Positions 2-63,336 of a stretch of DNA of 64,000 nucleotides are shown here, one piece after another. Under the pieces are notes generated by a model. It saw only the letters and a program-made list of their open reading frames with translations, had not been told where the DNA came from and made no database searches. The translations under genes were made by a program, and so were the position numbers. The first letter of the stretch is position 1, and each line of letters begins with the position of its first letter. The stretch is from Candidatus Heimdallarchaeum aukensis (GTDB taxonomy: Archaea; Asgardarchaeota; Heimdallarchaeia; Heimdallarchaeales; Heimdallarchaeaceae), in assembly GCA_021513695.1 (NCBI GenBank), contig CP084166.1:2080001-2144000 (forward strand), in the 5' to 3' direction.

Positions 2-835
2 TCTTTAGCTGAGCGAATAGATTTTTCTTCTCTCCCTGATTATTTTGAACATCTTAAGAAAGCTAGTATTATTTTATCTACTGCTAGAGATACTGAACCT
101 GCTTTACGTAATGGTTTACACTTTATTCTTTACGAGTTAGAGCATCAAGCTAGTTCTGTTTCTGAGGCTAAGGAACTTGTTTCTTCTCTTTCCCAGAAAT
201 ACGTTGAGATGTTGAAGGATTCTAAAAGGAAAGTTATCTCTTATGGAGCTCACCGGATTCGTGATAATAGTGTTATTATGACTCATTGTCATTCTTCCTT
301 GTCTACTGGTATAATTATTGAGGCTCACCGTCAGGGTAAAAACATTGAGGTTTTTCTTACTGAGACTCGTCCTAAGTGGCAGGGTCGTATTACTGCTAAG
401 GAGATGGTTGATGCTGAGATTCCTACTACTATGGTTGTTGATAGTGCTATGCGTTACGTAATCAACAGACATAATGTTGATATTGTTATTACCGGTGCTG
501 ATGCAATTACTAGCCAAGGTACTGTTATTAATAAGATTGGTACTCGTCTTTTAGCTTTGGCTGCTAGGGAAATGGATGTTCCTTTTTATACCGCTATCAA
601 CTTGTTGAAGTATGATGCTTCCACTACTATTGGCAAGTTATCTGCGATTGAATTTCGCCCTTCTTCTGAAGTTTGGGAAGATCCTCCTAAAGGTTTGAAA
701 ATTCTTAATCCTGCATTTGAGACAGTTTCTCGTGATCTTATTGATGGTGTAATCACTGAAGCTGGTATTTTTGCTCCTTCCTTGGTTTACATGATTATTA
801 AAGAGCGTTATCCCTTTATGCTCTTAAACGAATGA
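2..835 (+). CDS. ribose-1,5-bisphosphate isomerase (eIF-2B alpha/beta/delta-like, e2b2 family); 5' end lies outside the window
   Basis: The ORF-track protein 209..835 carries the eIF-2B-like/R15P isomerase signature (HRIRDNSVIMTHCHSS, GADAITSQGTVINKIGT). The same frame stays open back to nt 2 with no stop codon. It lies directly upstream of RuBisCO, as in archaeal AMP-salvage loci. Confidence 0.6.
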   Translation, partial: SLAERIDFSSLPDYFEHLKKASIILSTARDTEPALRNGLHFILYELEHQASSVSEAKELVSSLSQKYVEMLKDSKRKVISYGAHRIRDNSVIMTHCHSSLSTGIIIEAHRQGKNIEVFLTETRPKWQGRITAKEMVDAEIPTTMVVDSAMRYVINRHNVDIVITGADAITSQGTVINKIGTRLLALAAREMDVPFYTAINLLKYDASTTIGKLSAIEFRPSSEVWEDPPKGLKILNPAFETVSRDLIDGVITEAGIFAPSLVYMIIKERYPFMLLNE

Positions 836-995
836 ATTTTATGAGCCAACTTTCTTTTCTTTCTTTTTTCTTTCTTTTTCTTCTATTGATTTTTTGCTTG
901 ATTTTTTCTCTAATACATTTATAATTTTTTTTAATAACTAGTAAAGAGTTTTTTTAATTTTCATTTTTTCTGATTAATAAATTTGAACAAAACAG

Positions 996-1006
996 ACCAT
1001 TTAAAA
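996..1006 (+). promoter_or_regulatory. candidate archaeal TATA box (ATTTAAAAG) about 27 nt upstream of the rbcL ATG, implying a leaderless transcript
   Basis: An AT-rich TATA-like octamer sits at the expected spacing from the start codon, and no Shine-Dalgarno sequence is present. Confidence 0.3.
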
Positions 1007-1028
1007 GTTCATTTGCTATTTTTATTTT

Positions 1029-2276
1029 ATGAATAACGCATATAAAGATTTAGTAGTTGCTCGCTATTACGTTGAGCATAAAAGCGTGGAAAAAGCCGCA
1101 GAAGAAATCTGTGATGAAGAAAGTGTTGGCACTTGGACAGACTTACGTACTACAGAGGGTAAGCCTCACGTTGCTAAACTTAGAGCTGAAGTTTTGGACA
1201 CTAAAGTTTTTTCTGAGAAGGATGGTTATCAAACTGGTGAAGTATTAATTGGCTTTAAAACTGAGACTTTTGACTTAGAAGCTGGTATTACTAGTATCCT
1301 CTCTATGCTTGCCGGAAATCTCTTTGGTCTCGGTGCTTTAAGAAACATACGTTGGTTAGACGTTGAGTTTCCTAGAGTCATTGCTGAAACTTATCCTGGT
1401 CCTAAATTTGGTATCGAAGGTGTAAGAAAGATAATAGGGACTGATAAAGGCGAATTTCCTAATCGGCCACATATCGGAACAATAGTCAAACCCAAAATGG
1501 GCTTAACCGCTCAAGAGTGGGCTGATGTAGCCTATGAAGCAGCTATAGGTGGTGTTGATTTCATCAAAGATGATGAAAATTTGTCTGATCAGTCCTTCTG
1601 CAGGTTAGAAGATCGAGTTGTAAAAGTACTTGAAAAATTAGATCAGGTTAAAGAGGAAACCGGTCGCACTGTTTTACATGCTGTAAATGTTACTGCTAAG
1701 CATGATGTTATGTGGAAAAGAATAGAAATGGCTTTAGATAACGGGGCAAAGTGTTTAATGATTGATGTAATATTAACTGGTTTCCAAGAACTTGCTCAAA
1801 TGGCTGAAGATCCAGCAGTTAATGTTCCCATACATGTTCATAGAACAATGCATGCCGCTTTCACTCGAAACCCACTTCATGGAATTTCTATGCTACCTAT
1901 TGCAAAAATAGTTCGCATGTCTGGTGGAGACCAATTGCATATTGGCTCATATGGACAAGGTAAGATGGACACTGATAAAGAACTAGAATTACAAATAAAA
2001 GATACCCTCACTCATCCAATGTATGAATTTAAGCCCACATTTCCTGTAGCTTCCGGAGGATTACATCCCGGAAAAATACCCAACCTAGTAAAATATGGCG
2101 GAAATAATATCATTATTCAAGCAGGTGGAGGTATACACGGTCATCCTGATGGAACAAGGAAAGGGGCAACAGCAATGAAGCAAGCACTAGAAGCAACATT
2201 AAAAGGTATCCCATTAGACGAGTATGCAAAAGAGCATGAAGAATTAGCCAAAGCTTTAACGAAATGGGGTAAGTAG
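1029..2276 (+). CDS. rbcL: ribulose-1,5-bisphosphate carboxylase/oxygenase large subunit, archaeal form III
   Basis: RuBisCO active-site motifs are conserved: KPKMGL, GGVDFIKDDENL (carbamylated Lys), HVHRTMHAAF, GGDQLHIGSYGQGKM and QAGGGIHGHPDGTRKGA. The protein is 415 aa. Confidence 0.85.
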   Translation: MNNAYKDLVVARYYVEHKSVEKAAEEICDEESVGTWTDLRTTEGKPHVAKLRAEVLDTKVFSEKDGYQTGEVLIGFKTETFDLEAGITSILSMLAGNLFGLGALRNIRWLDVEFPRVIAETYPGPKFGIEGVRKIIGTDKGEFPNRPHIGTIVKPKMGLTAQEWADVAYEAAIGGVDFIKDDENLSDQSFCRLEDRVVKVLEKLDQVKEETGRTVLHAVNVTAKHDVMWKRIEMALDNGAKCLMIDVILTGFQELAQMAEDPAVNVPIHVHRTMHAAFTRNPLHGISMLPIAKIVRMSGGDQLHIGSYGQGKMDTDKELELQIKDTLTHPMYEFKPTFPVASGGLHPGKIPNLVKYGGNNIIIQAGGGIHGHPDGTRKGATAMKQALEATLKGIPLDEYAKEHEELAKALTKWGK

Positions 2277-8043: not shown

Positions 8044-9294
8044 TTGAAGCAGATAGTTGACTTTCATATCCATAGTCCTTTCTCGCGTGGTGTATCAAAA
8101 AACATGCAGATTTCTATTTTAGCTGCAGAAGCAAGAAAAAAAGGACTTGATATAATCGGAACCGGAGATGTTTTCCACAAACAATGGAATAAATACCTCC
8201 AAGAAAATTTGTCTTATGAAGTTGATGGATTATACAGCCCTTCAAAGAAAGAATATAATACATTGTTTATTGCTACAGGAGAAGTTGAGGATAACGAACA
8301 TATTCATCATTTAGTTATAGTTCCTAGTTTAAAAACTGGTATCGAGATAGCAATAGAGTTTGAAAAAAGGAACAAAATAAAGCTATCTCGCTATGGTGGG
8401 AGACCTAGAGTGGACATGGATGCTTCTCAACTTGTAGATTTGGTAAAAGAGTATAACTGTTTAATTGGTCCTGCACATATATTTACTCCTTTTACTTCAA
8501 TTTTTAGAGAAAATAAATATTCATCACTAAAAGACTGTTTTAAAGAATCAACTGTTAAGGTTGACTTTGTAGAGCTCGGCCTTTCTGCAAATTCTGCGAT
8601 GGCCGATAAAATAAAAGAACTTTGGGGGTATACTTTTTTAAGCAATTCAGATAGCCATTCTCCTAAATCATCGAAAATAGGACGAGAAGCAAATGTGATA
8701 GAGGTTGATGATGTATCTTTCAGTTCAATCCAAAAGTCATTAGAAAAAGGAAAGGAGTCCAAGATTATTTTGAATGTTGGATTAGATCCTCGTTTGGGCA
8801 AATATCATTTGTCTTTTTGCTATAAATGTAGAAGAAGGATAGTATATATTCATAATCCTTCAAAAATTTATGATGAAAAGTTCATTTATTTTGAAAAAGA
8901 AAATGAGAAACAATTCATGATTTCAATATCAGCTAGAAAACTACGTTGTCCTGCATGTAATGGTTTACTTAAATTAGGCGTAAATGACAGGGTAGAGTTA
9001 TTAGCAACTACAAATAAAAAGAACACAAAACGTCCTCCTTATTTTGATAGTGTGCCTCTCGTGTCACTTATTTCTAAAGGACTTAAAATAAAGAACCCTG
9101 ATTCAAAAACGGTGATAAAAGAGTATAACCGTTTAATAGCTACATTTGAAAATGAATACAATATTTTACTTAATGCATCAATAGAAGAAATTAGAAAAGA
9201 GAATGATTATATTGGTAAAAAAATAGAGTTGATGAGAGAAAATAAATTGGAAATCATTCCTGGTGGAGGGGGAAACTATGGGGAATTGGTTTAA
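8044..9294 (+). CDS. PHP-domain metal-dependent phosphoesterase with a C-terminal Cys4 zinc ribbon
   Basis: The N-terminus has a PHP signature (DFHIHSPFSRG ... GTGDVFH). Zinc-ribbon cysteines follow (CYKCRRR ... CPACNG). Confidence 0.55.
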   Translation: MKQIVDFHIHSPFSRGVSKNMQISILAAEARKKGLDIIGTGDVFHKQWNKYLQENLSYEVDGLYSPSKKEYNTLFIATGEVEDNEHIHHLVIVPSLKTGIEIAIEFEKRNKIKLSRYGGRPRVDMDASQLVDLVKEYNCLIGPAHIFTPFTSIFRENKYSSLKDCFKESTVKVDFVELGLSANSAMADKIKELWGYTFLSNSDSHSPKSSKIGREANVIEVDDVSFSSIQKSLEKGKESKIILNVGLDPRLGKYHLSFCYKCRRRIVYIHNPSKIYDEKFIYFEKENEKQFMISISARKLRCPACNGLLKLGVNDRVELLATTNKKNTKRPPYFDSVPLVSLISKGLKIKNPDSKTVIKEYNRLIATFENEYNILLNASIEEIRKENDYIGKKIELMRENKLEIIPGGGGNYGELV

Positions 9295-10175: not shown

Positions 10176-12419
10176 ATGACAAAAGAAAAAGAAATTTTAG
10201 AACAGGATGAGAAAAAGAAAAAGTGGAGTTTTCTAGGTTGGGGGTTGCTGTTTCTTCTAATTTGGACAATAGCTCTTATGTTTATTCTCGAGGTAGCTCT
10301 GCATCCTGCAGATAGTATTATAGCGACAATTGTTGCTTATGCTCTAGGATTACTAGGCCTAGGTGTTTTCGCAGGGTTGACTCGAAGTAAATGGAAAGTT
10401 TTGGTAACCTTTCCCTTAGCAATACTAATTATCTTTGGTGCAGGTTACCTGCTACACTTAGTTAACGCTCCTATATATAATCCATTAGCTCCCGTTTCAG
10501 AAAGAGTTTTTGTGATTGTAGATGAACTAGATAGTATTGCTAATACTTCTATAGCTGACAATATTCCCGCAGATCTATTGAATAATATGGAATCTATCAA
10601 ACAATATGCTGATTTTGCATTTGTAGTTGATTTAATTATTAGTTTACCGATATTTATCCTTGGTACGTTATCTGTGACGTGGATAGTTCAGATATTTACT
10701 CAGAAACCTAAATGGTGGGTGATTTTCTCTGCGTTTTTTGCTTTAATATTTTTCATGATAGGAATGATTATGACTCCCTTTGTTCACTTAGTTATTGCGG
10801 GCGTTGTTGACCTAGGAACTAATATGAGCATCGGAGCTTTATATATGGTAAATGGACTTTCATACCTACAAGATTTACAGAATGCAGATCAAGCAGATAT
10901 TAATGAAGCAGTAGCTAATCTGAATTTAGCTTCAGAATGGTTTCAAAAAGGAGGAGAAGATATAAAGGTATTCCTAGGCGCGCTTTCTATGTCACCTTAT
11001 TTAGGAGATGCAGCCGATGACTTTAATCACCTGTTCCAAGCAGCATTCATACTCTTAGGTGGAGCAGGAACGTTTGTTAATGGGTCATATCAACTATTCA
11101 AAGGATTTGATCTGATTTCAAAAGCTCTGAATACAAGCTCTGGGTCATTAACTATGCAAGATGATCAAGTTAAACAAGCAATAGACGACGATTTGTTTAA
11201 TCAAGGTATTGACTTTATTAATGAAGGTCTTGAACTATTTGATAATAGTAGCTATGTTTTTGATGATGCTTTAACTGAAATAAAACAAGTTGATTGGCAA
11301 GAAATAAAAACTGAACTTCACGAATTGCCGATAGAAGGGACTGAAGAAATAGATTCAACTTTGGACCAGATGGAAGGTTATCTCAGCATCTTTGAAAATG
11401 CAACAGGATTGATTGATGTACTAATATCAAAACCAACATTTGCTAATGGTAGTCAAAGTAATTATGCAACATTAATTCATTTCTTCTTAGGGGCTTATAA
11501 TATAATGAAAGCTCAAGAAATTATAGGTGATGAAACTAACTTTGCAGGAACAGAAGTTTACTTTAACAGGGCTGGTGAACACTTTAATGTTACATATAAT
11601 GCATTACAAACAAGAACTGTTGCTCAGTTAATACATTCAGACACCCCAATATTAAATGGGACTGTTGCTTTCATTGTTGATATGACCGGATTGGCCGCTG
11701 ATTTAAGTTTCTTCGGTGGAGATATGGGGCCAACACTTGTTGGATTAAATAGCACACTTTCAGTTTTGTCTAATGGATATGAAAATGTAACTGATTATGA
11801 CTCAATTAGAGCAGATATTTCTGATAGTATAACAGAATTAGATAACCTAAAGGATACTGCTCATTCGATAGATAATAGGATTTTAGGAATTCAAGAAAAC
11901 GCAACAGCAAACATTTATGGAGAGTTCAGTGAAACAGCAAGTGATTTTGCATCTAATTTCCAGAAATTTAATATTACTTTGAACCTCGAAAATGCTTATT
12001 ATATTGCCCAATCATTCTATTATCTATTTGGTGCTATGAAAGATCTTAAGGACATTAAAGGATATATTGAAACTGGACAAACTGCTTTTGATAATTCAGA
12101 TTATTTGACCGCCTATAATAACTTCTTAGCCGCTAATACATCATTAGATTCATGCATCGATCAGATGTGGAATGCAAGTTACTACTTTAACCAAACTATA
12201 GGCAATGGAATGGGACAGTTAAGTAGTTCTGGTGATGCAATTGCACTAATTTACTTCTCTCTAGTATCTATACAAACTGACATAAACGTTATAACTGGAA
12301 TCGCAGGGGGTGGTAGCCCAACTGAAAGCGAAATTACTGAAGTAAATAATCGCTTAGACCACATTAACACAGTATTAGTGAATGTAAACAATGAACTAGC
12401 ACAAGTAAAAGGACAATAA
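10176..12419 (+). CDS. large membrane-anchored protein with about 6 N-terminal TM helices and a long, predominantly helical extracytoplasmic domain; function unknown
   Basis: 747-aa ORF with hydrophobic segments in the first 200 aa. The remainder is polar with N-glycosylation-like N-x-S/T sequons. Confidence 0.45.
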   Translation: MTKEKEILEQDEKKKKWSFLGWGLLFLLIWTIALMFILEVALHPADSIIATIVAYALGLLGLGVFAGLTRSKWKVLVTFPLAILIIFGAGYLLHLVNAPIYNPLAPVSERVFVIVDELDSIANTSIADNIPADLLNNMESIKQYADFAFVVDLIISLPIFILGTLSVTWIVQIFTQKPKWWVIFSAFFALIFFMIGMIMTPFVHLVIAGVVDLGTNMSIGALYMVNGLSYLQDLQNADQADINEAVANLNLASEWFQKGGEDIKVFLGALSMSPYLGDAADDFNHLFQAAFILLGGAGTFVNGSYQLFKGFDLISKALNTSSGSLTMQDDQVKQAIDDDLFNQGIDFINEGLELFDNSSYVFDDALTEIKQVDWQEIKTELHELPIEGTEEIDSTLDQMEGYLSIFENATGLIDVLISKPTFANGSQSNYATLIHFFLGAYNIMKAQEIIGDETNFAGTEVYFNRAGEHFNVTYNALQTRTVAQLIHSDTPILNGTVAFIVDMTGLAADLSFFGGDMGPTLVGLNSTLSVLSNGYENVTDYDSIRADISDSITELDNLKDTAHSIDNRILGIQENATANIYGEFSETASDFASNFQKFNITLNLENAYYIAQSFYYLFGAMKDLKDIKGYIETGQTAFDNSDYLTAYNNFLAANTSLDSCIDQMWNASYYFNQTIGNGMGQLSSSGDAIALIYFSLVSIQTDINVITGIAGGGSPTESEITEVNNRLDHINTVLVNVNNELAQVKGQ

Positions 12420-29883: not shown

Positions 29884-30822
29884 GTGAATGACAAAGTACT
29901 AAAGGTAGGAAAAGAATCAGTACCCGTAACTATACTTGGGTTAGAAAATGCTGGAAAAACCACTCTAATTGAGAGGTTAAAAACAGGTTCTTTTGTAGAA
30001 GATACAACTCCTACATTAGGTGTAAGCTTTGAATCTTTTAAAGTAGGTGATACTTTATTCAAGATTTTTGATGTTGGGGGACAATTTGTTTATCGAAAAC
30101 AGTTTTGGGTAAATTACGCATCAAATAGCTATGGTATTATCTTTGTATTTGATGCCTCCGATAAAGAAAGAACAACAGAAGGAAAAGAGTGGTTCTGGTA
30201 TCTAATAGACAATATTGAAATTGAAGACCGAATAGTTGTAGCTTTTTTTGCTAATAAAGCCGATTTAGAATGCATGTCAATAGAAGAAATTATTGAAGCG
30301 CTTGAACTCCCAAGGATGAGTGAGCACTCAAAGATTAGTTTCCAAATATTTAAGACAAGTAATAAAACAGGCGAAGGAATAGACGCTGCATTAGATTGGT
30401 TTACAAACAAACTAAAACAAATAGGAAAAGAAAAAATAGTCCATCCAAAAGGTTTGATTATAAGTACAACACTAGGCAGAGTGCAGTTATTCTTAGATCT
30501 TGAAGGATTATCACAACAAATATCGCAAATCAGAGAATTATTAGCTCAAATATTTAAATATGAATCAGCTACGCTCAAAGAAGAAAAATTATCTACTATT
30601 TCAAACGAGAATATAAAACTCGTATGTCACGAAAGAAGTGACGTGATAATAACAATGATCATAAATCCAGAAGAATCTCATGTAGAAGCTCAAAGATATA
30701 TTGAGCAAGTGTATGAATACTTAGAAAAGAAAACAGCAAAAACGAAAGATGAGCTTATAAAAGGAATATTAAACTTACTAAATATTAAAGATGAAAGTAA
30801 AGTTAAGATAATTACAATGTAA
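29884..30822 (+). CDS. Arf-family small GTPase (Asgard ArfR-like) fused to a roughly 130-aa C-terminal alpha/beta domain (possibly roadblock/longin-like); GTG start
   Basis: G1 GLENAGKTT; interswitch TTPTLGVSFESF; G3 DVGGQ; WVNY..GIIFVFDASDKER; G4 NKAD; G5 region KTSNKTGEGIDAALDWF. These match the Arf1 blocks GLDAAGKTT/TIPTIGFNVE/DVGGQ/NKQD/SGDGLYEGLDWL. Confidence 0.7.
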   Translation: MNDKVLKVGKESVPVTILGLENAGKTTLIERLKTGSFVEDTTPTLGVSFESFKVGDTLFKIFDVGGQFVYRKQFWVNYASNSYGIIFVFDASDKERTTEGKEWFWYLIDNIEIEDRIVVAFFANKADLECMSIEEIIEALELPRMSEHSKISFQIFKTSNKTGEGIDAALDWFTNKLKQIGKEKIVHPKGLIISTTLGRVQLFLDLEGLSQQISQIRELLAQIFKYESATLKEEKLSTISNENIKLVCHERSDVIITMIINPEESHVEAQRYIEQVYEYLEKKTAKTKDELIKGILNLLNIKDESKVKIITM

Positions 30823-35789: not shown

Positions 35790-36389
35790 ATGTCCAACAG
35801 AATGAATCAATTATTGCTCTCAATCCGAAGACGATTGGGAAAGCCAGAAGTTTCTATATTGATTATGGGAAATGATACTCCAGCAGCTAGGAACAGAGTA
35901 AAACTATTGAATGCAGAAATCTCAATTGATGATTTTCTCTTAGATGACTATCTTTCTAAGCTTCCAGTTGAAGACAAGTTTAAGTTTAAACCTAAACTTT
36001 TCGAATCATTTGAGGGGATTTTGTACCTTATCGATGCTACAAAAGAAGATATGATTAAGCATGAGCGAGCTTTCTTCTGGGAAAAAATCGTTTGGAACGA
36101 GGATATAAGAGAGAAGCCAATTGCAATTTGTGCTTATAATAGTAATTTACAAGGCTCTTTAACCAGTGGAGAACTCATAGAGAATCTGTCACTTGTTAGA
36201 TTAACAGATAGGGTTTGGAAGTTATTTGAGGTTGGAGACGTTAACGACTTATTAAGCGCATTAAACTGGCTTAAGGAAGCGATATGGATGGGTTGGACAT
36301 TAGATTGGGAAAGAAAAGAAAGTCTTAAAACTAAACTTTCTCAAAAAAAGATTGTTATTGTAGATAAGAAAAATGATAATGAATCTTAA
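35790..36389 (+). CDS. Arf-like pseudoGTPase (Arf-type N-terminal amphipathic helix and C-terminal blocks retained; P-loop, switch II and NKxD degenerate)
   Basis: Manual alignment to Arf1: [14 protein letters not shown] vs RILMVGLDAAGKTT (Lys lost); [12 protein letters not shown] vs [22 protein letters not shown] vs [31 protein letters not shown] vs [34 protein letters not shown] vs GDGLYEGLDWL. Confidence 0.55.
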   Translation: [199 protein letters not shown]

Positions 36390-38006: not shown

Positions 38007-39392
38007 ATGCCCCATCGAATTTTTTTACTTACGGAATCAGAGTTTAGAGACCCTCTACAAAATTACGGCGATGCTGAGTTTATATTAGACTTTGAAGGTG
38101 CTGCTGAATTATTAAAACTTTGGCGTAATCCTCACCTAGGTAGGAGCTCTAGAGAAGGAGCTGTACTATCTTTAGGTGCAAAAAACGCTGTTGCAATCCA
38201 AAACATACTCCAAAAAATAATGACAACATATCTTACTGAAGCAGAAGAAGAGAGACTAATTAATGAACTAAAAATATTACAGTTTATTGGAGATAGAGTC
38301 CTCCCTGATGTTCTAGAACGTGTAAACAAGAACGAACTTCAAACAGTGGACGATATTATTCGATACATCCAGAATTTACTACGAGAACTGAAGTATGAGG
38401 GAACAGTTGATCTTAACCTTCTTGCAGATAAGTTGAACTCTCTTAAAGACATTGTTGATTTAGAAATTACAGATGCATACGGAAGAAAGAAGAGGATAAA
38501 ACGAGAAGAAGTGATGGATGTTTTAGGTAACATCCTTGGGCATTACCTTTTAAAGCAAATCAATGTTCTTCCTATTGATGAAGTTCAAAAACGCCCAAGA
38601 GGAACAATTAGACTTCGAGAAACCTATAAAAGTGCAGTGCTTAGTTCGCAATCAATTCCTCCAACGCGCGTAAAACAAGAAGATATTATCCGTGTGAAAA
38701 AAGATAGAAGAAGTTTAGTATATTTCTTAGTGGATTTAAGCCAATCAATGCAAAAAGAAGTGTTTGAGGGGGGAATGACAAGGTTAGATGGAGCTCTATT
38801 AACTGCTCTAAGTCTATATTACTACTTTAAAACCGCCAATAGGAGAAAAAGAAAGAGATACGATATGTTTCAACTTGCAGTAGTCCCTATTGTTCGAAAC
38901 CCCTTTGTAGTAGATGATGATACAAAAATGGAAGATCTTTTATTGAATGCTAAAGCCAAAGGAAAGACACATACTGTAAGCAGTGTTTTGAAAGCTATTG
39001 AGCATGCTAAAGCACAGTATAAGCATAAAAATATTGATGTTCAACTTACAATTGTAACGGATGGTATGCCAAACATACCTGTTTATCCATTTAATTACAA
39101 AATTAGTTCTTCATTAAAGAATTATTTCAATTCAATCGATACTAAAACCAGTCCAGAGACAATAGAGTGCTTGTTACAACTTAATGCCATATTTAAACAC
39201 TTAAAATCAGATCCTAATAGAAATTGGAACATAAGTTACTTTTTGATGGGTACAGAAGCTTTGAGAAAAAAGGAAATTTATAGTCATACGTATCAAATGT
39301 TGAAAGGTATAACTAAACCAATTTTAGTAGATCCTGCACAAATTAACAAACTTGGAGAGCAAGTACTACGGGAGAGTATTCACCATGCATAA
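38007..39392 (+). CDS. von Willebrand factor A (VWA) domain protein with a MIDAS motif
   Basis: The C-terminal half has LVYFLVDLSQSM (DxSxS MIDAS) and a downstream IVTDGMPN. A helical N-terminal half precedes it. It lies 25 nt after the AAA+ gene. Confidence 0.65.
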   Translation: MPHRIFLLTESEFRDPLQNYGDAEFILDFEGAAELLKLWRNPHLGRSSREGAVLSLGAKNAVAIQNILQKIMTTYLTEAEEERLINELKILQFIGDRVLPDVLERVNKNELQTVDDIIRYIQNLLRELKYEGTVDLNLLADKLNSLKDIVDLEITDAYGRKKRIKREEVMDVLGNILGHYLLKQINVLPIDEVQKRPRGTIRLRETYKSAVLSSQSIPPTRVKQEDIIRVKKDRRSLVYFLVDLSQSMQKEVFEGGMTRLDGALLTALSLYYYFKTANRRKRKRYDMFQLAVVPIVRNPFVVDDDTKMEDLLLNAKAKGKTHTVSSVLKAIEHAKAQYKHKNIDVQLTIVTDGMPNIPVYPFNYKISSSLKNYFNSIDTKTSPETIECLLQLNAIFKHLKSDPNRNWNISYFLMGTEALRKKEIYSHTYQMLKGITKPILVDPAQINKLGEQVLRESIHHA

Positions 39393-40977
39393 AGAAGAAT
39401 TAGCTGACATCATTGATGTGTATCTGCAAGCAAGAAAAGATTTCTTAGAACTGGTAGGTGAAACACCAGAGAATTATAGAATACTTATTTTTCTTAACCC
39501 TGATTTACATATTTCTGTTAACAGGGTGATTGAAAGTGCAGGAACTCCCCAGGCAATCTTAACTGCTGAAGAAGTTGTTCATCTACAATCAGCAAGAAAT
39601 AATGAATATATGCCGTTAGGGAAAGAAACAGTTTTTAACAGCATACCCACACTAATTTATCTTTCAACACCTCGTTATGAATTGACAGAGGAAGAGAAAA
39701 TAACTTTGAGAATAATGATAGTTCATGCTTTTGCTCATGCCTATATGAATGAAAAAACAGAATCCAATAATCCTAAACAGTTATCTCGCATATACCAACT
39801 AGATGTAATTTTAAAAGAATTATTCCAAAATAATGCTTACAAAATTAACGAAGAAACAAACAAACAGTTGATGTGGACTTGGCAGTACTATCAAGATCTA
39901 ATAAGCGTTATACGATTGTTTGTTGAGGCTGGAGTACAAGACTTTTATTCTCCTCCTGAAGAAGCAAGAAAATACACTTTATTCAACAACTTTTCAATTG
40001 AGGTTATTAAGGTTCTAAAGGAAAGAGCAAAAGAATCAAGAAAGAAACATCTCCACGATTTAATCGATGAAGGATTTGCATTCTATATTCAAAGGATGCA
40101 TTTAGATTATTTGAATAAAAATAAACAAGTCCCCAAGAATCTTCCTAAAGAACTTAAACCCTTTATGGCTCCCCCTGTTGGAAAAATAAGTTTGTTCTTA
40201 GTTGATAAACTAAAATTGGCTATAAGCGAACAAATAGAAAAGGAGAAAAAGGAGAGCCTTTCGTCAGAAGAAATTGAAAAAAGATTGTTTGATAAACTGT
40301 TTAGCTTTAGGACTGATTTAGAATTTCTTGAGACTTTTGATTGGCAAGAGCTAAAAAATTGGGTGTCTGAACAAAAAAGAGCTCATTCAGAAAAAGTGTT
40401 AAAGGATTGGCATGTAACAACTACCAATTTCACTGATATTTGGTCTGTTTATGCTTATGGTTGGACACAACTGGAAAATTACATCAAAAAGATATATAGA
40501 AAGAAATACAGTACTTTTGGACAATTGATGGATGATAACCCAAAAATAGAATTCAAGGGATATTTAACTGTTGATGAAAAGAAAGTTTATGTCTTTGAAA
40601 TCAATAACGAAGGTGTGGGACTAGATCAATTGGTTATTTTGCATAATCACATGGCTTTATATCGTGAAGATTTTGCTACCATACTTCCTGCTTTTGCAGA
40701 CATTATCGCTTTCAAAAAAATCAGAGGTATGCACGTTGCAACTTTGTTTGCTGTCCATAAAATTAGTAGAAAACAACCAATTAGTCCCTATAACTTGCCT
40801 ATTGTGACTAGAGCTGTTCAAGTAACGAAAAGAAAGGATGCATACAAAACTGAACTCGATGAAGAAAAAGAGAAAATGGAAGTTGAACGAGTAGACTATA
40901 CACATTTGAAGAAACTCTCTCAACCTCAAAGAAACGCTATAAGTTATCTAATAAAGGAAGGAATGTACTATGTTTAA
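39352..40977 (+). CDS. hypothetical 541-aa mostly alpha-helical protein in the AAA+/VWA operon
   Basis: ORF overlapping the neighbours on both sides. No recognizable catalytic motif. Confidence 0.4.
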   Translation: MESKYYGRVFTMHKEELADIIDVYLQARKDFLELVGETPENYRILIFLNPDLHISVNRVIESAGTPQAILTAEEVVHLQSARNNEYMPLGKETVFNSIPTLIYLSTPRYELTEEEKITLRIMIVHAFAHAYMNEKTESNNPKQLSRIYQLDVILKELFQNNAYKINEETNKQLMWTWQYYQDLISVIRLFVEAGVQDFYSPPEEARKYTLFNNFSIEVIKVLKERAKESRKKHLHDLIDEGFAFYIQRMHLDYLNKNKQVPKNLPKELKPFMAPPVGKISLFLVDKLKLAISEQIEKEKKESLSSEEIEKRLFDKLFSFRTDLEFLETFDWQELKNWVSEQKRAHSEKVLKDWHVTTTNFTDIWSVYAYGWTQLENYIKKIYRKKYSTFGQLMDDNPKIEFKGYLTVDEKKVYVFEINNEGVGLDQLVILHNHMALYREDFATILPAFADIIAFKKIRGMHVATLFAVHKISRKQPISPYNLPIVTRAVQVTKRKDAYKTELDEEKEKMEVERVDYTHLKKLSQPQRNAISYLIKEGMYYV

Positions 40978-46644: not shown

Positions 46645-47547
46645 GTGATTAGAATGGAAAAAAAATATCTATTTATGGTTTTATTTATTCTTACTTTAAG
46701 TCCACTCGTTATTAATCCCGCAAGTGCAGCAGCAACTTGGGGTGTAGAAGTAGATAAAGAATATAATTTCGAACTCTTAAATTTCAGTATCGCTGATACA
46801 GATTATACCAAATTTGTAAAAGCACAATTTAATGTCTACGTAAAATTCACAGAATTGAATGATACTGGTTACACTTACAATGTTTATAATGCTACAAACG
46901 ATGAATTGTTATCCACAAACTCGACAAATTTTGAGGTAACGACTAATGAAAATGGTACATTTATTCTTCCCGTTGGATTACCTGTTGCTTTACCTCTTCA
47001 ATTTGATTCAACAGACTATCTAAATTATCTAGGTGAATTGGTGAATCAAACTTTTACAATGCTTGGTGACTTTGACGAACTCTTGAATATGACCTCTATG
47101 AGTAATGACACAACTCTTGCAATTTATTCACTTTTAGATACCGAACTTCTCTCTCTAAAAATTGATTTATATACCCCAAAAGTAGAAGAAGAACTAATAA
47201 CGCAACTAACTGGTTCGCTTGGAAGTGAAATGGGTTTTCCAATGCAATTACCAACAAATCTTACTGACTTTAAATTAAATCTTACATTATCATTTGATGC
47301 AGAAGTAGGTATATTTAATGCTTTAATCTTAAAAATACGCTCAATAGCTACAGATGATTTTGGCTATCAAAGTCCATTTAACGTTGATATAAAATATGCA
47401 TGGGATAAACCTAGTGAAGTAACACCTACACCAACCCCCACATCAACTTCAACCCCAACTGAAACTCCATATCCCTGGGGAATTGCTATTATAGCTCCAA
47501 TTCTCGTTACAGGTTTGTTGTTAGTCAATAAGAAGCGAAAAAGGTAG
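46645..47547 (+). CDS. secreted/cell-surface protein with an N-terminal signal peptide, a Thr/Pro-rich linker and a C-terminal TM anchor plus basic tail
   Basis: N-terminal MEKKYLFMVLFILTLSPLVINPASA. Many N-x-S/T sequons. C-terminal PTPTPTSTSTPTETPYPWGIAIIAPILVTGLLLVNKKRKR. Confidence 0.55.
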   Translation: MIRMEKKYLFMVLFILTLSPLVINPASAAATWGVEVDKEYNFELLNFSIADTDYTKFVKAQFNVYVKFTELNDTGYTYNVYNATNDELLSTNSTNFEVTTNENGTFILPVGLPVALPLQFDSTDYLNYLGELVNQTFTMLGDFDELLNMTSMSNDTTLAIYSLLDTELLSLKIDLYTPKVEEELITQLTGSLGSEMGFPMQLPTNLTDFKLNLTLSFDAEVGIFNALILKIRSIATDDFGYQSPFNVDIKYAWDKPSEVTPTPTPTSTSTPTETPYPWGIAIIAPILVTGLLLVNKKRKR

Positions 47548-54641: not shown

Positions 54642-54700
54642 ATAAAAAAAGAGAAGAGAAGAAAAGAGAAGAGAAGAAAAGAGAAGAGAAGAGAAAAGTT
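54642..54700. repeat. GA-rich tandem repeat (about 3.5 copies of AGAGAAGAGAAGAAA)
   Basis: Read directly: agagaagagaagaaaagagaagagaagaaaagagaagagaagagaaaag. Confidence 0.85.
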
Positions 54701-54908
54701 TGCACACCCTCTACAGAGCCACCCTCTGTGACTGTTGTGCGAACTTCTAGCTATGTGTGATGACATTTTGGTGGTAGTATGTTTTTACTCCACACGAATT
54801 CATATACTGAATATGAAATTCGTAGCTAATAGTAAAAAAGAGAAAATAGTATATAAACTCAGCAATAAATAAGGGCAATCTTTGGAGAAAAAAATAAAAT
54901 TGGAAGAA

Positions 54909-55634
54909 CTATTTCCAGAATTGCCACCATTTTTTCTTTTTAGAAGAATCTTCTTTCTTATCGTCATTTCTTAGTTCTAGTGCAGCATCTCTCCAAGCCA
55001 TTTTTGTGATCATATCTCTGAATCCTTCTGGTTCGTCACCTTCTTCAATAACATATACAATGGGTATTCTCTTACGTTCAACTTCTAGTTGTCTAGCTAT
55101 TTTTCCTGCTTCATATTTTTCTTTAACTTGACAATCTTTACCTATCCATATGTAAATCTCATCATAAAAGTCTAGAACAAAGGCATCATCGGACTCAAAT
55201 AATTTATACTCAATCGGAATTTCTTTAGTAATTACCTCTCCTTTTTCATTCTGTTCAATATGTAATAGGCGAAAATCCTTCTTTACCTTTATATCTATGT
55301 GCTTAAGAAAACCAGGTGTATCTCCTCTTTTTACTTCAAATTCTATTATATCTAGAAATTCTGGAGGTTCATCACCTTGCATTATTGTTTTGATTTCTAG
55401 TTTTTTGTTTTTTTCTTCAATTACTTTGGCTGCCCAAGCTCCTACAGCTTTGTCGTCAGCATAGCTCCTTTTACCTATCCAAACCCAGAGAATGTTATCG
55501 GTTTCAACAACATAAACATCTCCATCTAAAAAAGTATAAGGAGACTTTAACTCTTTTAATTCTTTTTTAACTACATGATAAACTTGCATATAATTACTAA
55601 TGTATAGTGTAATAAAAGTCTTTTTAAGAGACAA
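54909..55634 (-). CDS. two-domain gelsolin-like actin-binding protein (Asgard 2DGel-like)
   Basis: Two gelsolin-fold repeats are each followed by an acidic EP-F block: YVVETDNILWVWIGKRSYADDKAVGAWAAKVIEE..GDEPPEF and FVLDFYDEIYIWIGKDCQVKEKYEAGKIARQLE..GDEPEGF. Confidence 0.65.
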   Translation of the reverse strand: MSLKKTFITLYISNYMQVYHVVKKELKELKSPYTFLDGDVYVVETDNILWVWIGKRSYADDKAVGAWAAKVIEEKNKKLEIKTIMQGDEPPEFLDIIEFEVKRGDTPGFLKHIDIKVKKDFRLLHIEQNEKGEVITKEIPIEYKLFESDDAFVLDFYDEIYIWIGKDCQVKEKYEAGKIARQLEVERKRIPIVYVIEEGDEPEGFRDMITKMAWRDAALELRNDDKKEDSSKKKKWWQFWK

Positions 55635-63233: not shown

Positions 63234-63336
63234 TGGTGGGGACGGCACGACTTGAACGCGCGACCAACAGGTATCTACGTTTTTTCAAATTATTAAACTC
63301 TGGAGCCTGCCACTCTACCTACTGAGCTACGTCCCC
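63234..63336 (-). tRNA. tRNA-Trp (anticodon CCA) with a roughly 27-nt intron at the canonical 37/38 position; CCA encoded
   Basis: The minus-strand fold gives acceptor GGGGACG/CGTCCCC, D-arm GCTC-AGTAGGTA-GAGT, anticodon stem GCAGG/CCTGT with loop CTCCAG(A) interrupted by GTTTAATAATTTGAAAAAACGTAGAT, and T-arm GCGCG-TTCAAGT-CGTGC. Confidence 0.7.

What the first reader, a model, noticed from the sequence alone, without database searches (positions are those of the whole stretch)
54909..55634. Two-domain gelsolin-like protein
Two internal repeats match the gelsolin/villin core (beta strands around a conserved WxG and a following acidic EP-F type-2 Ca-site region): YVVETDNILWVWIGKRSYADDKAVGAWAAKVIEE...GDEPPEF and FVLDFYDEIYIWIGKDCQVKEKYEAGKIARQLE...GDEPEGF. 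Two-domain gelsolins have so far been reported essentially only from Asgard archaea and sever or cap actin. The basic KKKKWWQFWK tail is unusual.
Basis: partly seen in the sequence, partly recalled or inferred. Interest (0 to 1): 0.7.

Follow-up and report, generated by a model that had tools for sequence, protein, structure and literature searches.

The report
Asgard two-domain gelsolin with anchor tail
This gene encodes an ordinary member of the known two-domain gelsolin family (actin-cutting proteins) of Heimdall-group Asgard archaea, but its short Trp-rich tail is a conserved, portable end-motif, probably a membrane anchor, that also caps many unrelated bacterial and phage proteins and is absent from the searched literature.

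Summary
Window 54909-55634 (-) is a real gene, with the true start probably at ATG 55589 (226 aa). It encodes two gelsolin repeats (Pfam PF00626, E=4e-22). The best PDB match is the crystallised Heimdallarchaeota 2DGel 7whf (E=4e-49, 37% identity), and Foldseek ranks Asgard 2DGels first. All calcium-site and WH2-like signature residues are conserved. The exact protein is already catalogued from Ca. Heimdallarchaeum aukensis as "Gelsolin-like domain-containing protein", so the gelsolin call is correct but not new.

The new part concerns the tail. KKWWQFWK is 86% conserved across 60 orthologues, against 27% for the spacer before it. It defines one of two paralogue clades in Heimdallarchaeaceae. 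Sister clades, including the crystallised LC_3 protein (…KKGFFGRLFGR), carry MinD-like amphipathic endings at the same position. This points to a tethered membrane-targeting sequence.

Exact KWWQFWK also occurs at the termini of at least 95 unrelated bacterial and phage protein clusters. Same-composition scrambles are almost absent (0-2 hits against at least 120), and codon wobble positions follow contig GC. It is therefore an order-specific peptide motif, and no paper in the searched library contains it. Membrane binding is inferred, not shown.

The parts
54909..55589 (-). Coding sequence of the two-domain gelsolin (226 aa plus TAG stop at 54909-54911). The 241-aa reading from TTG 55634 is probably a mis-called start.
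55314..55589 (-). Gelsolin domain 1 (aa 1-92). Contains G23-D24, W35xW37xG39, D45-D46, the long helix with invariant W52 (aligns with human gelsolin I103), E58 (type-1 position), E74-P75..F78, and D90-T91.
55275..55313 (-). Inter-domain linker (aa 93-105, GFLKHIDIKVKKD) with the WH2-like LKHI motif (human gelsolin FKHV). Low pLDDT, as expected for a segment that orders on actin.
   Evidence: L95 invariant.
55017..55274 (-). Gelsolin domain 2 (aa 106-191). Contains D135, W148-I-G150, E157, E169, and E186-P187..F190.
54969..55016 (-). Extension of the C-terminal helix (aa 192-207) carrying invariant D201, the equivalent of calcium-binding Asp222 in the ordered part of the Heim2DGel tail.
54942..54968 (-). 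Variable, charged spacer (aa 208-216, NDDKKEDSS), predicted disordered.
   Evidence: spacer 27% mean pairwise identity; rich in K/E/T/R/S.
54912..54941 (-). Terminal basic/aromatic motif KKKKWWQFWK (aa 217-226). Core (K/R)KWWxFWK; proposed membrane-targeting sequence.
55610..55617 (-). TATA-box-like TTTTATTA about 21-28 nt upstream of ATG 55589, preceded by an A-rich stretch. This would give a leaderless or very short-leader mRNA.
   Evidence: Read directly; inference only, no archaeal promoter tool was available.
54888..54899 (-). T-run (TTTTATTTTTTT) beginning 10 nt after the stop codon, a plausible archaeal termination signal. The gene looks monocistronic.
   Evidence: inference.

Best explanation
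The gene encodes a Heimdallarchaeaceae two-domain gelsolin (2DGel). [quoted passage not shown] The LKHI linker runs up the actin face and domain 2 docks alongside. Together they would sever filaments, cap barbed ends and sequester monomers, as measured for the Heimdall LC_3, Loki and Thor homologues.

After domain 2 come a helix extension with a further calcium ligand (D201), a variable charged spacer of about 10 residues, and the terminal motif KKWWQFWK. I read this motif as a short interfacial membrane anchor: Trp and Phe partition into the bilayer interface, and the Lys residues bind anionic head groups. It would hold this paralogue reversibly at the cell membrane, while a tailless paralogue in related genomes stays cytosolic.

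Shown here: family membership, fold, residue conservation, clade structure, and the portability and order-specificity of the motif. Inferred: actin activity (about 0.8) and membrane binding (about 0.55).
For: Gelsolin identity:
- Pfam 4e-22 with two repeats.
- 7whf E=4e-49, Thor 2DGel3 6e-30, Loki 2DGel 7e-22, human gelsolin 7e-35.
- 37% identity and 63% positives to LC_3 Heim2DGel.
- Foldseek top five hits are all Asgard 2DGels, E 7e-21 to 9e-16, probability 1.00.
- The AF2 model has two sheet-plus-long-helix domains.
- Across 78 relatives the signature residues are invariant or conservatively replaced: D24, W37, G39, W52, D90, T91, L95, W148, E157 and D201 invariant or nearly so; D46 is D/E; D135 is D with 4 N; E169 is E/D.
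- Published biochemistry shows calcium-dependent severing, capping and sequestering for the homologues.

Tail as a functional module:
- The motif is 86% identical across 60 distinct orthologues, against 27% for the spacer.
- Tail-bearing (26) and tailless (24) clades are each monophyletic, and the branches below the split carry tails.
- 21 of 26 Heimdallarchaeaceae MAGs carry one of each.

Membrane reading:
- Other clades carry different basic-amphipathic endings at the same terminal position: LC_3 clade KKGFF[GSA][RK]LFG[RK], others KKSFWSKLKFW, KKPFWKFWG, KKPWWKFW, KRGFFSRLFRRG.
- One relative has the motif at the N-terminus instead (MSFLRRLFGQRK).
- Among the window's ORFs, KKWWQFWK is the only C-terminal 8-mer with strongly favourable Wimley-White interfacial energy, and the only one of 17,613 8-mers that combines that energy with at least 5 K/R nearby.
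- The motif is autonomous: it caps PP2C+TM, ECF-sigma, ankyrin, HTH and signal-peptide proteins, and sits at the N-terminus of HK97-family portal proteins.
- AF2 does not dock it on the gelsolin domains (pLDDT about 40).
Against: No experiment on this protein exists. Actin activity is transferred across 37% identity.

For the anchor reading:
- The hydrophobic patch is only five residues.
- Simple amphipathic partitioning does not explain why order matters so much. Scrambles with the same hydrophobic/polar pattern give 0-2 viral hits against at least 120. Conservative single W/F swaps give only 10-32 hits, many of them junk frames. That sharpness is more typical of a motif read by a receptor.
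- Some carriers have a signal peptide or a transmembrane helix, which would place the motif outside the cell.
- In PMC9433394, deleting the LC_3 tail did not change actin disassembly in cells, and the tail's role was left open.
- Whether this genome itself has the tailless paralogue was not established.
Confidence: 0.8

Rival explanations
1. The tail is a short linear docking motif read by a specific, widely conserved macromolecular partner (a protein, or nucleic acid through Lys-Trp stacking), not by lipid. The gelsolin would be recruited to that partner.
For: Strong order-specificity: KWWQFWK gives at least 120 viral hits, against 0, 2 and 1 for three same-composition permutations. Single conservative substitutions are several-fold rarer than the consensus. 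Many carriers are DNA-related: HTH, RHH/Mob-like, ECF sigma and portal proteins.
Against: Carriers span Firmicutes, Proteobacteria, Bacteroidales, phages and an Asgard archaeon, over a contig GC range of 0.25-0.73, and include both cytoplasmic and secreted proteins. A common protein receptor is therefore hard to name. In sister gelsolin clades the same position holds MinD-like amphipathic sequences with no similarity to WWQFW. No solved structure contains the motif.
Confidence: 0.25
2. The tail acts within the gelsolin-actin system itself. It could be an autoinhibitory latch folding back on domain 2, like the C-terminal latch helix of six-domain gelsolin, or an extra F-actin contact, like the KKEKGLF end of the villin headpiece.
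For: Position after the last domain, and its basic/aromatic character. Both precedents are from my own knowledge. The first about 10 tail residues of Heim2DGel do contact actin and calcium.
Against: The identical heptapeptide occurs on at least 95 unrelated protein clusters with no gelsolin or actin. AF2 gives no docked pose. The published LC_3 tail construct (residues 227-270, which omit its terminal motif) did not associate with actin filaments, and tail deletion left actin disassembly intact. The tailless paralogue keeps every core signature.
Confidence: 0.07
3. The recurring KWWQFWK codons reflect a DNA- or RNA-level element (recombination site, terminator, coupling signal or mobile cassette), not a selected peptide.
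For: The motif sits at gene ends, often in phage or mobile-element genes.
Against: Wobble positions follow contig GC: Gln CAG rises from 20% to 89% and Phe TTC from 20% to 100%. Only 2-3% of locus pairs share any flanking 9-10-mer, and these are family relatives. All three stop codons are used. The motif also occurs at N-termini and internally. In the gelsolin clade it varies at the peptide level (Q/E/R/K at position 3).
Confidence: 0.03

Closest known systems
Heim2DGel of Heimdallarchaeota LC_3 (OLS25976.1; PDB 7whf; PMC9433394)
   Same: Two gelsolin domains, LKH(V/I) WH2-like linker, type-1 and type-2 calcium signature residues in both domains, a helix extension with the Asp222/D201 calcium ligand, and a charged disordered tail that ends in a basic-aromatic motif.
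   Different: Only 37% identical. It lacks the two LC_3 insertions (a 13-residue insertion in D1 and a 6-residue insertion in D2). The tail is 26 rather than 68 residues and ends KKWWQFWK instead of KKGFFGRLFGR. No experimental data exist for this protein.
Tailless Heimdallarchaeaceae 2DGel paralogue (203-209 aa; e.g. TET81546.1, mentioned in PMC9433394)
   Same: About 60% identical core and the same signature residues; it co-occurs in the same genomes.
   Different: It ends …IAKEDKKLEKKK, with no spacer or aromatic motif, and forms a separate monophyletic clade.
Thor 2DGel/2DGel3 (7c2g, 7c2h) and Loki 2DGel (7whg)
   Same: Same two-domain fold and actin-binding mode.
   Different: The Thor proteins have no tail. 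The Loki protein has a long linker plus a zinc-binding domain and an LVDV linker motif.
Eukaryotic gelsolin, villin, CapG, severin and fragmin
   Same: Homologous repeats (E 1e-34 to human gelsolin). The FKHV linker and calcium ligands G65/D66/E97/D109 have equivalents here (residue numbers from my own knowledge). Eukaryotic gelsolin is also regulated at membranes, through basic/hydrophobic PIP2-binding segments (own knowledge).
   Different: Three or six domains rather than two. Membrane contact there uses internal PIP2 sites, not a terminal tethered peptide.
Bacterial membrane-targeting sequences of MinD (…KKGFLKRLFGG) and FtsA (…GSWIKRLNSWLRKEF); sequences from my own knowledge
   Same: A terminal, short, basic-plus-aromatic amphipathic peptide attached by a flexible linker to a cytoskeleton-related protein. 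The LC_3-clade gelsolin endings are nearly the MinD sequence. Computed interfacial energy is comparable or stronger.
   Different: KKWWQFWK is shorter, Trp-based and far more sequence-constrained than MinD-type anchors, which tolerate wide variation.

Membership tests
Gelsolin/villin superfamily (Pfam PF00626) | Profile match above the curated threshold, in repeated copies. | tested here: met
   E=4e-22, 78.3 bits against a cut-off of 21, two stretches. Internal repeat score 90 against 31.6 +/- 6 for shuffles.
Gelsolin/villin superfamily (Pfam PF00626) | Gelsolin fold: a mixed beta-sheet packed against a long helix and a short helix. | tested here: met
   AF2 model, pLDDT 74.6, with strand/helix order E-E-E-E-E-H(long)-E-H-E occurring twice. 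Foldseek probability 1.00 to gelsolin-family chains, 114 hits at E<=1e-3. Whole-chain TM-scores are only 0.4-0.5, which I attribute to differing domain orientation (not tested per domain).
Gelsolin/villin superfamily (Pfam PF00626) | W-x-G ('DWG/WG') signature strand. | tested here: met
   W37/G39 and W148/G150 are invariant or nearly so in 78 relatives. The WG motif is named as characteristic in PMC9433394.
Asgard 2DGel | Exactly two gelsolin domains joined by a WH2-like linker (LKKT-like tetrapeptide). | tested here: met
   Two domains. LKHI at aa 95-98, L95 invariant; the human equivalent FKHV is cited in PMC9433394.
Asgard 2DGel | Type-2 calcium ligands in both domains (human G1 equivalents G65/D66, E97). 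| tested here: met
   G23/D24 and D46 (D/E) in domain 1; D135 and E157 in domain 2. All are at least 95% conserved, apart from the conservative D/E exchange at D46. The mapping uses the alignments plus my own knowledge of the human ligand numbers.
Asgard 2DGel | Type-1 (actin-shared) calcium ligand on the long helix (human D109). | tested here: inconclusive
   An acidic residue is present at the expected helix register: E58 (E in 67 of 78) and E169 (E/D in 77 of 78). However, the phmmer alignment places a one-residue gap in the D1 helix, so the register rests on inference.
Asgard 2DGel | Encoded by an Asgard archaeon. | tested here: met
   98% identity and collinear neighbours with Ca. Heimdallarchaeum endolithica PR6. 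The exact protein is deposited from Ca. H. aukensis.
Asgard 2DGel | Calcium-dependent actin severing, capping and sequestering. | not testable with these tools
   Demonstrated only for the LC_3, MKD1/Loki and Thor homologues (PMC9433394, PMC7444086).
Terminal amphipathic membrane-targeting sequence (MinD/FtsA type) | Located at an extreme terminus, after a flexible linker. | tested here: met
   It forms the last 8-10 residues after a low-pLDDT K/E/S-rich spacer. In other carriers, 68 of 120 metagenome hits lie within 2 aa of the stop codon, and there are N-terminal cases.
Terminal amphipathic membrane-targeting sequence (MinD/FtsA type) | A basic flank plus a hydrophobic/aromatic face with favourable interfacial partitioning. 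| tested here: met
   Net charge +5. The W, W, F, W side chains span about a 160-degree arc on a helical wheel. The sum of favourable Wimley-White terms is -6.7 kcal/mol, against -3.4 for MinD and -6.3 for FtsA (scale and reference sequences from my own knowledge).
Terminal amphipathic membrane-targeting sequence (MinD/FtsA type) | The sequence is interchangeable provided the physicochemistry is kept. | tested here: inconclusive
   Met across gelsolin clades, where different amphipathic endings occupy the same position. Not met for the heptapeptide itself, where scrambles are at least 40-fold rarer.
Terminal amphipathic membrane-targeting sequence (MinD/FtsA type) | Binds lipid bilayers and localises its cargo to the membrane. 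| not testable with these tools
   No experiment available. The only hint is nuclear exclusion of the GFP-Heim tail in U2OS cells (PMC9433394).

The most novel reading that the evidence does not exclude
(K/R)KWWQFWK is a previously undescribed, order-specific, portable terminal peptide shared by phages, diverse bacteria and Heimdallarchaeaceae. It targets proteins to the membrane interface, or to an as yet unknown universal receptor. In Heimdallarchaeum it tethers one of two gelsolin paralogues, giving these Asgard archaea a membrane-attached, calcium-controlled actin-severing and capping factor. Together with the MinD-like endings on LC_3-type gelsolins, this would be the first predicted direct physical link between the Asgard actin-regulatory machinery and the membrane.
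Probability: 0.4. Interest if true: 0.7.

Novelty: new member of a known kind. Interest (0 to 1): 0.42.

Why it matters
The gelsolin itself adds little. Asgard 2DGels, including a Heimdall one, already have crystal structures and biochemistry, and this protein is already auto-annotated as gelsolin-like.

What would matter is the tail. How Asgard actin is coupled to the membrane, for protrusions, blebs and possibly the engulfment steps discussed for eukaryogenesis, is an open question. A gelsolin paralogue pair that differs by a terminal membrane anchor is a concrete handle on it, testable with liposomes and GFP fusions. The result also suggests revisiting the published LC_3 tail experiments, whose in-vitro tail construct omitted the MinD-like ending.

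Separately, an eight-residue motif that recurs in exact order on about a hundred unrelated prokaryotic and phage protein families is an unexplained regularity. It could turn out to be a useful targeting tag.

Tried and rejected
1. Operon or neighbourhood link to actin, profilin or other cytoskeletal genes: none. The neighbours are aIF2beta, aIF1A, RIO1, a KH protein, PHP and RHH on one side, and isochorismatase, a MiaB-like radical-SAM enzyme, WD40 and hydantoinase on the other. Small unannotated ORFs gave no profilin or other PDB match. Synteny is conserved only within the genus, apart from a hydantoinase B gene that recurs near tail-bearing paralogues.

2. Reading the 7whf tail from PDB alignments failed, because the alignments stop at residue 230 and a motif-only query found nothing. 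It was solved by retrieving the LC_3 protein.

4. 'The tail is just a basic/aromatic low-complexity end': rejected by its conservation and by the permutation controls.

5. 'It is a DNA element': rejected by wobble-versus-GC behaviour and the lack of shared flanks.

6. 'It is a gelsolin latch or actin contact': made unlikely by portability to unrelated proteins.

7. Pfam finds no domain covering the motif in any carrier, nor in the conserved C-terminal domain of Hodarchaeales-type gelsolins.

8. Literature: no paper contains 'WWQFW', and none links Asgard gelsolin to an amphipathic membrane anchor.

Full report
**1. The observation.** The two halves of the protein align with a BLOSUM62 local score of 90. 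One thousand shuffles of the second half gave 31.6 +/- 6.0, with a maximum of 63. The internal repeat is therefore real. The true start is very probably the ATG at 55589, giving 226 aa. Relatives begin MKVYHV or MNVYHV. The 226-aa form is the one deposited for Ca. Heimdallarchaeum aukensis and Ca. H. endolithica. A TATA-like TTTTATTA lies about 21-28 nt upstream of that ATG, inside the longer ORF (my reading). A T-run follows the TAG stop. The gene looks monocistronic.

**2. What it is.** Pfam's Gelsolin repeat matches twice (E=4e-22, 78 bits against a cut-off of 21). Against all PDB sequences, the best hit is the Heimdallarchaeota two-domain gelsolin 7whf (E=4e-49). It is followed by human and horse gelsolin (about 1e-34), Thor 2DGel3 (6e-30) and Loki 2DGel (7e-22). 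Identity to the crystallised LC_3 protein is 37%, with 63% positives. An AlphaFold2 model built on 78 relatives (mean pLDDT 74.6) shows two copies of the sheet-plus-long-helix gelsolin domain. Confidence is low only in the inter-domain linker and the tail. Foldseek ranks the five Asgard 2DGel chains first (E 7e-21 to 9e-16, probability 1.00), ahead of villin and gelsolin. Whole-chain TM-scores are only 0.4-0.5, which I attribute to variable domain orientation; I did not test single domains.

**3. Source organism.** The window has 33% GC. It is collinear with the complete Ca. Heimdallarchaeum endolithica PR6 chromosome, where the gelsolin is 98% identical. The exact 226-aa sequence is deposited from Ca. 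H. aukensis, on a 3.08-Mb contig, and UniRef names it 'Gelsolin-like domain-containing protein'. The paper describing these genomes lists actin, profilin and gelsolin among the signature proteins found across Asgard phyla (PMC8813620).

**4. Functional residues.** I mapped residues using the alignments, together with my own knowledge of the human gelsolin G1 ligands (type-2: G65, D66, E97, V145; type-1: D109, G114, A116; actin-contact residue I103). The equivalents are as follows.
- Type-2, domain 1: G23/D24, D46 and D90/T91.
- Type-1 register, domain 1: E58.
- Actin contact: W52 at the I103 position.
- WH2-like tetrapeptide: L95-K-H-I98 (human FKHV, as named in PMC9433394).
- Type-2, domain 2: D135 and E157.
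- Type-1 register, domain 2: E169.
- D201 aligns with Asp222, the calcium ligand in the ordered start of the LC_3 tail.

In 78 relatives these positions are invariant or conservatively replaced. By homology, the protein should sever and cap actin filaments and sequester monomers in a calcium-dependent way, as measured for the LC_3, MKD1/Loki and Thor proteins (PMC9433394, PMC7444086). This step is inferred, not shown.

**5. Context.** The neighbouring genes are housekeeping. On one side are NMD3, DUF424, aIF2beta, aIF1A, RIO1, a KH protein, PHP and RHH. On the other are isochorismatase, a MiaB-like radical-SAM enzyme, WD40 and hydantoinase. No actin, profilin or other cytoskeletal gene is nearby.

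**6. The tail within gelsolins.** The tail is not peculiar to this protein. Of 78 sampled Heimdall relatives, about 50 end in (K/R)(K/R)WWxFWK, and about 25 (203-209 aa) end …IAKEDKKLEKKK with no such motif. Among species-representative genomes, 21 of 26 Heimdallarchaeaceae MAGs carry one of each. A neighbour-joining tree of the core domains separates 26 tail-bearing from 24 tailless sequences into two clean clades. The lineages branching below that split all carry tails, so the tail looks ancestral and was lost in one paralogue. Across 60 distinct tail-bearing sequences, the seven motif residues are 86% identical on average, while the 12 residues before them are 27% identical and rich in K/E/T/R/S. 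This is the signature of a functional end-piece on a flexible tether.

**7. What other clades carry at that position.** More distant two-domain gelsolins end in different basic-aromatic amphipathic peptides: KKSFLSRLKFW, KKSFWDKLKFW, KKPFWKFWG, KKPWWKFW and KRGFFSRLFRRG. One relative has no C-terminal tail but starts MSFLRRLFGQRKEK… followed by a K/E-rich linker. The crystallised LC_3 Heim2DGel ends …KDKLKKKGFFGRLFGR, and its whole clade ends KKGFF[GSA][RK]LFG[RK]. From memory, this is almost the E. coli MinD membrane-targeting sequence (KKGFLKRLFGG). The published in-vitro tail construct covered residues 227-270 and so left this ending out. The authors state that the role of the tails is unclear, and they noted nuclear exclusion of tail fusions in human cells.

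The terminal peptide is thus interchangeable between clades, independent of which terminus it sits on, and constant in physicochemistry. This is the main argument for a membrane-targeting function. A Wimley-White estimate (scale from my own knowledge) gives about -6.7 kcal/mol of favourable terms for this tail, compared with -3.4 for MinD and -6.3 for FtsA. The tail is also unique among the window's ORF termini in this respect.

**8. The motif outside gelsolins.** I searched for the back-translated heptapeptide KWWQFWK as a DNA pattern.
None is a gelsolin. In 68 of them the motif lies within two residues of the stop codon, and in 27 more within 3-12 residues.
- Viral contigs: again at least 120 hits. 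Of these, 37 are at the C-terminus, 46 near it, and 21 at the N-terminus of proteins such as HK97-family portal proteins.
- Independence: after masking the motif, the 231 carrier proteins fall into 95 BLAST clusters.
- Carrier types: PP2C+TM+coiled-coil, ECF-sigma+TM, ankyrin, HTH, signal-peptide and Cys-rich scaffolds. They come from Blautia, Pantoea, Bacteroidales and phages.
- Pfam: no family covers the motif.

**9. Controls.** Three permutations with identical composition and codon degeneracy gave 0, 2 and 1 viral hits. Four conservative single W/F substitutions gave 27, 24, 10 and 32 hits. Many of those are junk reading frames, and only a few are independent true terminal cases. Wobble positions in the motif track contig GC (Gln CAG 20% to 89%, Phe TTC 20% to 100%), and unrelated loci share no flanking DNA. 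Selection therefore acts on the peptide, not on a DNA element. No paper in the searched library contains 'WWQFW'.

**10. Interpretation and its limits.** Portability to unrelated proteins argues against a gelsolin-specific latch or an actin contact. So does the published observation that the LC_3 tail construct does not bind F-actin and that tail deletion leaves actin disassembly intact. The replacement by MinD-like endings in sister clades favours a membrane anchor. The order-specificity, however, is sharper than simple amphipathic partitioning predicts, because the scrambles KWFQWWK and KFWQWWK keep the same hydrophobic pattern. A receptor-read docking motif therefore remains a serious rival, and this point is unexplained.

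My estimates are:
- 2DGel membership: about 0.97.
- Calcium-regulated actin severing and capping: about 0.8.
- Tail as a membrane anchor: about 0.55.
- Tail as a specific docking motif: about 0.25.

**11. Verdict.** As a gelsolin, this is an uncharacterised member of a known, structurally solved family, in a genome where gelsolin was already reported. The feature worth following up is the conserved, portable KKWWQFWK end-motif, together with the MinD-like ends of related gelsolins. It predicts a membrane-tethered actin regulator in the archaea closest to eukaryotes, and it is directly testable.

Noticed in passing
L071-L310 (metagenome and IMG/VR loci); e.g. L127, L104, L136, L194, L073, L191: Exact (K/R)KWWQFWK recurs at the extreme C-terminus, sometimes the N-terminus, of at least 95 unrelated protein clusters from bacteria and phages: PP2C+TM, ECF sigma, ankyrin, HTH, HK97 portal, Cys-rich mini-proteins, and a small 'FGDNPFSEC…KRKWWQFWKSKY' phage family. 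Scrambled versions are almost absent. No literature hit was found.
   Followed up: partly
P0270 (LC_3 Heim2DGel, PDB 7whf) and P0271-P0305: The crystallised Heim2DGel and its clade end in a MinD-like amphipathic sequence, KKGFF[GSA][RK]LFG[RK]. The published in-vitro tail construct (residues 227-270) omitted it, so its possible membrane role has not been tested.
   Followed up: partly
P0123 (258 aa, Hodarchaeota MAG): This two-domain gelsolin has no C-terminal tail. Instead it has an N-terminal MSFLRRLFGQRKEK… followed by a K/E-rich linker of about 50 aa: the same kind of motif moved to the other end of the protein.
   Followed up: no
L051-L062, L067, L070; P0128, P0139, P0324: Hodarchaeales-type 2DGels (345-460 aa) carry a conserved C-terminal domain of about 100-150 aa ending …IHDRLLQxGHxY[RK], after a Pro/Thr/Glu-rich linker. 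Pfam finds nothing there. This is probably the 409-aa 'B3_Heim' architecture mentioned in PMC9433394.
   Followed up: partly
P0129 (477 aa) and P0131 (376 aa): Prokaryote-like proteins with three or four gelsolin repeats (P0131 also has an N-terminal zinc ribbon), i.e. more than two domains. Their source organisms are unknown.
   Followed up: no
window 63237-63336 (-): A tRNA found by Rfam (54 bits) but missed by ARAGORN. It is 100 nt long with an apparent intron after the anticodon loop. The anticodon region reads CCA, so it is probably an intron-containing tRNA-Trp, as is common in archaea.
   Followed up: partly
window 29884-30822 (+) and 35790-36389 (+): Two Arf-family small GTPase genes. 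The first (E=1e-35) carries a C-terminal extension of about 130 aa with no Pfam match. The second is a weak, partial match. Both are eukaryotic-signature proteins of the kind discussed for Asgard membrane trafficking.
   Followed up: no
window 209-2276 (+): An IF-2B-family protein, which may be a ribose-1,5-bisphosphate isomerase, lies directly upstream of a RuBisCO large-subunit gene. If so, this would be the archaeal nucleotide-salvage (AMP) pathway pair.
   Followed up: no
window 54647-54695: A perfect 15-nt x 3.1 purine/pyrimidine-strand microsatellite (AAAAGAGAAGAGAAG on the + strand) in the 382-nt spacer between the gelsolin gene and the downstream RHH gene.
   Followed up: no
window 55590-55634 (-): GenBank's ACTSPP_04850 and several relatives (P0003, P0004, P0022 and others) are annotated with 13-22 extra N-terminal residues, from upstream TTG or ATG starts. 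These are probably start-site mis-calls.
   Followed up: partly
window 10176-12419, 39352-40977, 8044-9294, 46645-47547 (+): Four sizeable ORFs (747, 541, 416 and 300 aa) with no Pfam match at E<=0.01.
   Followed up: no
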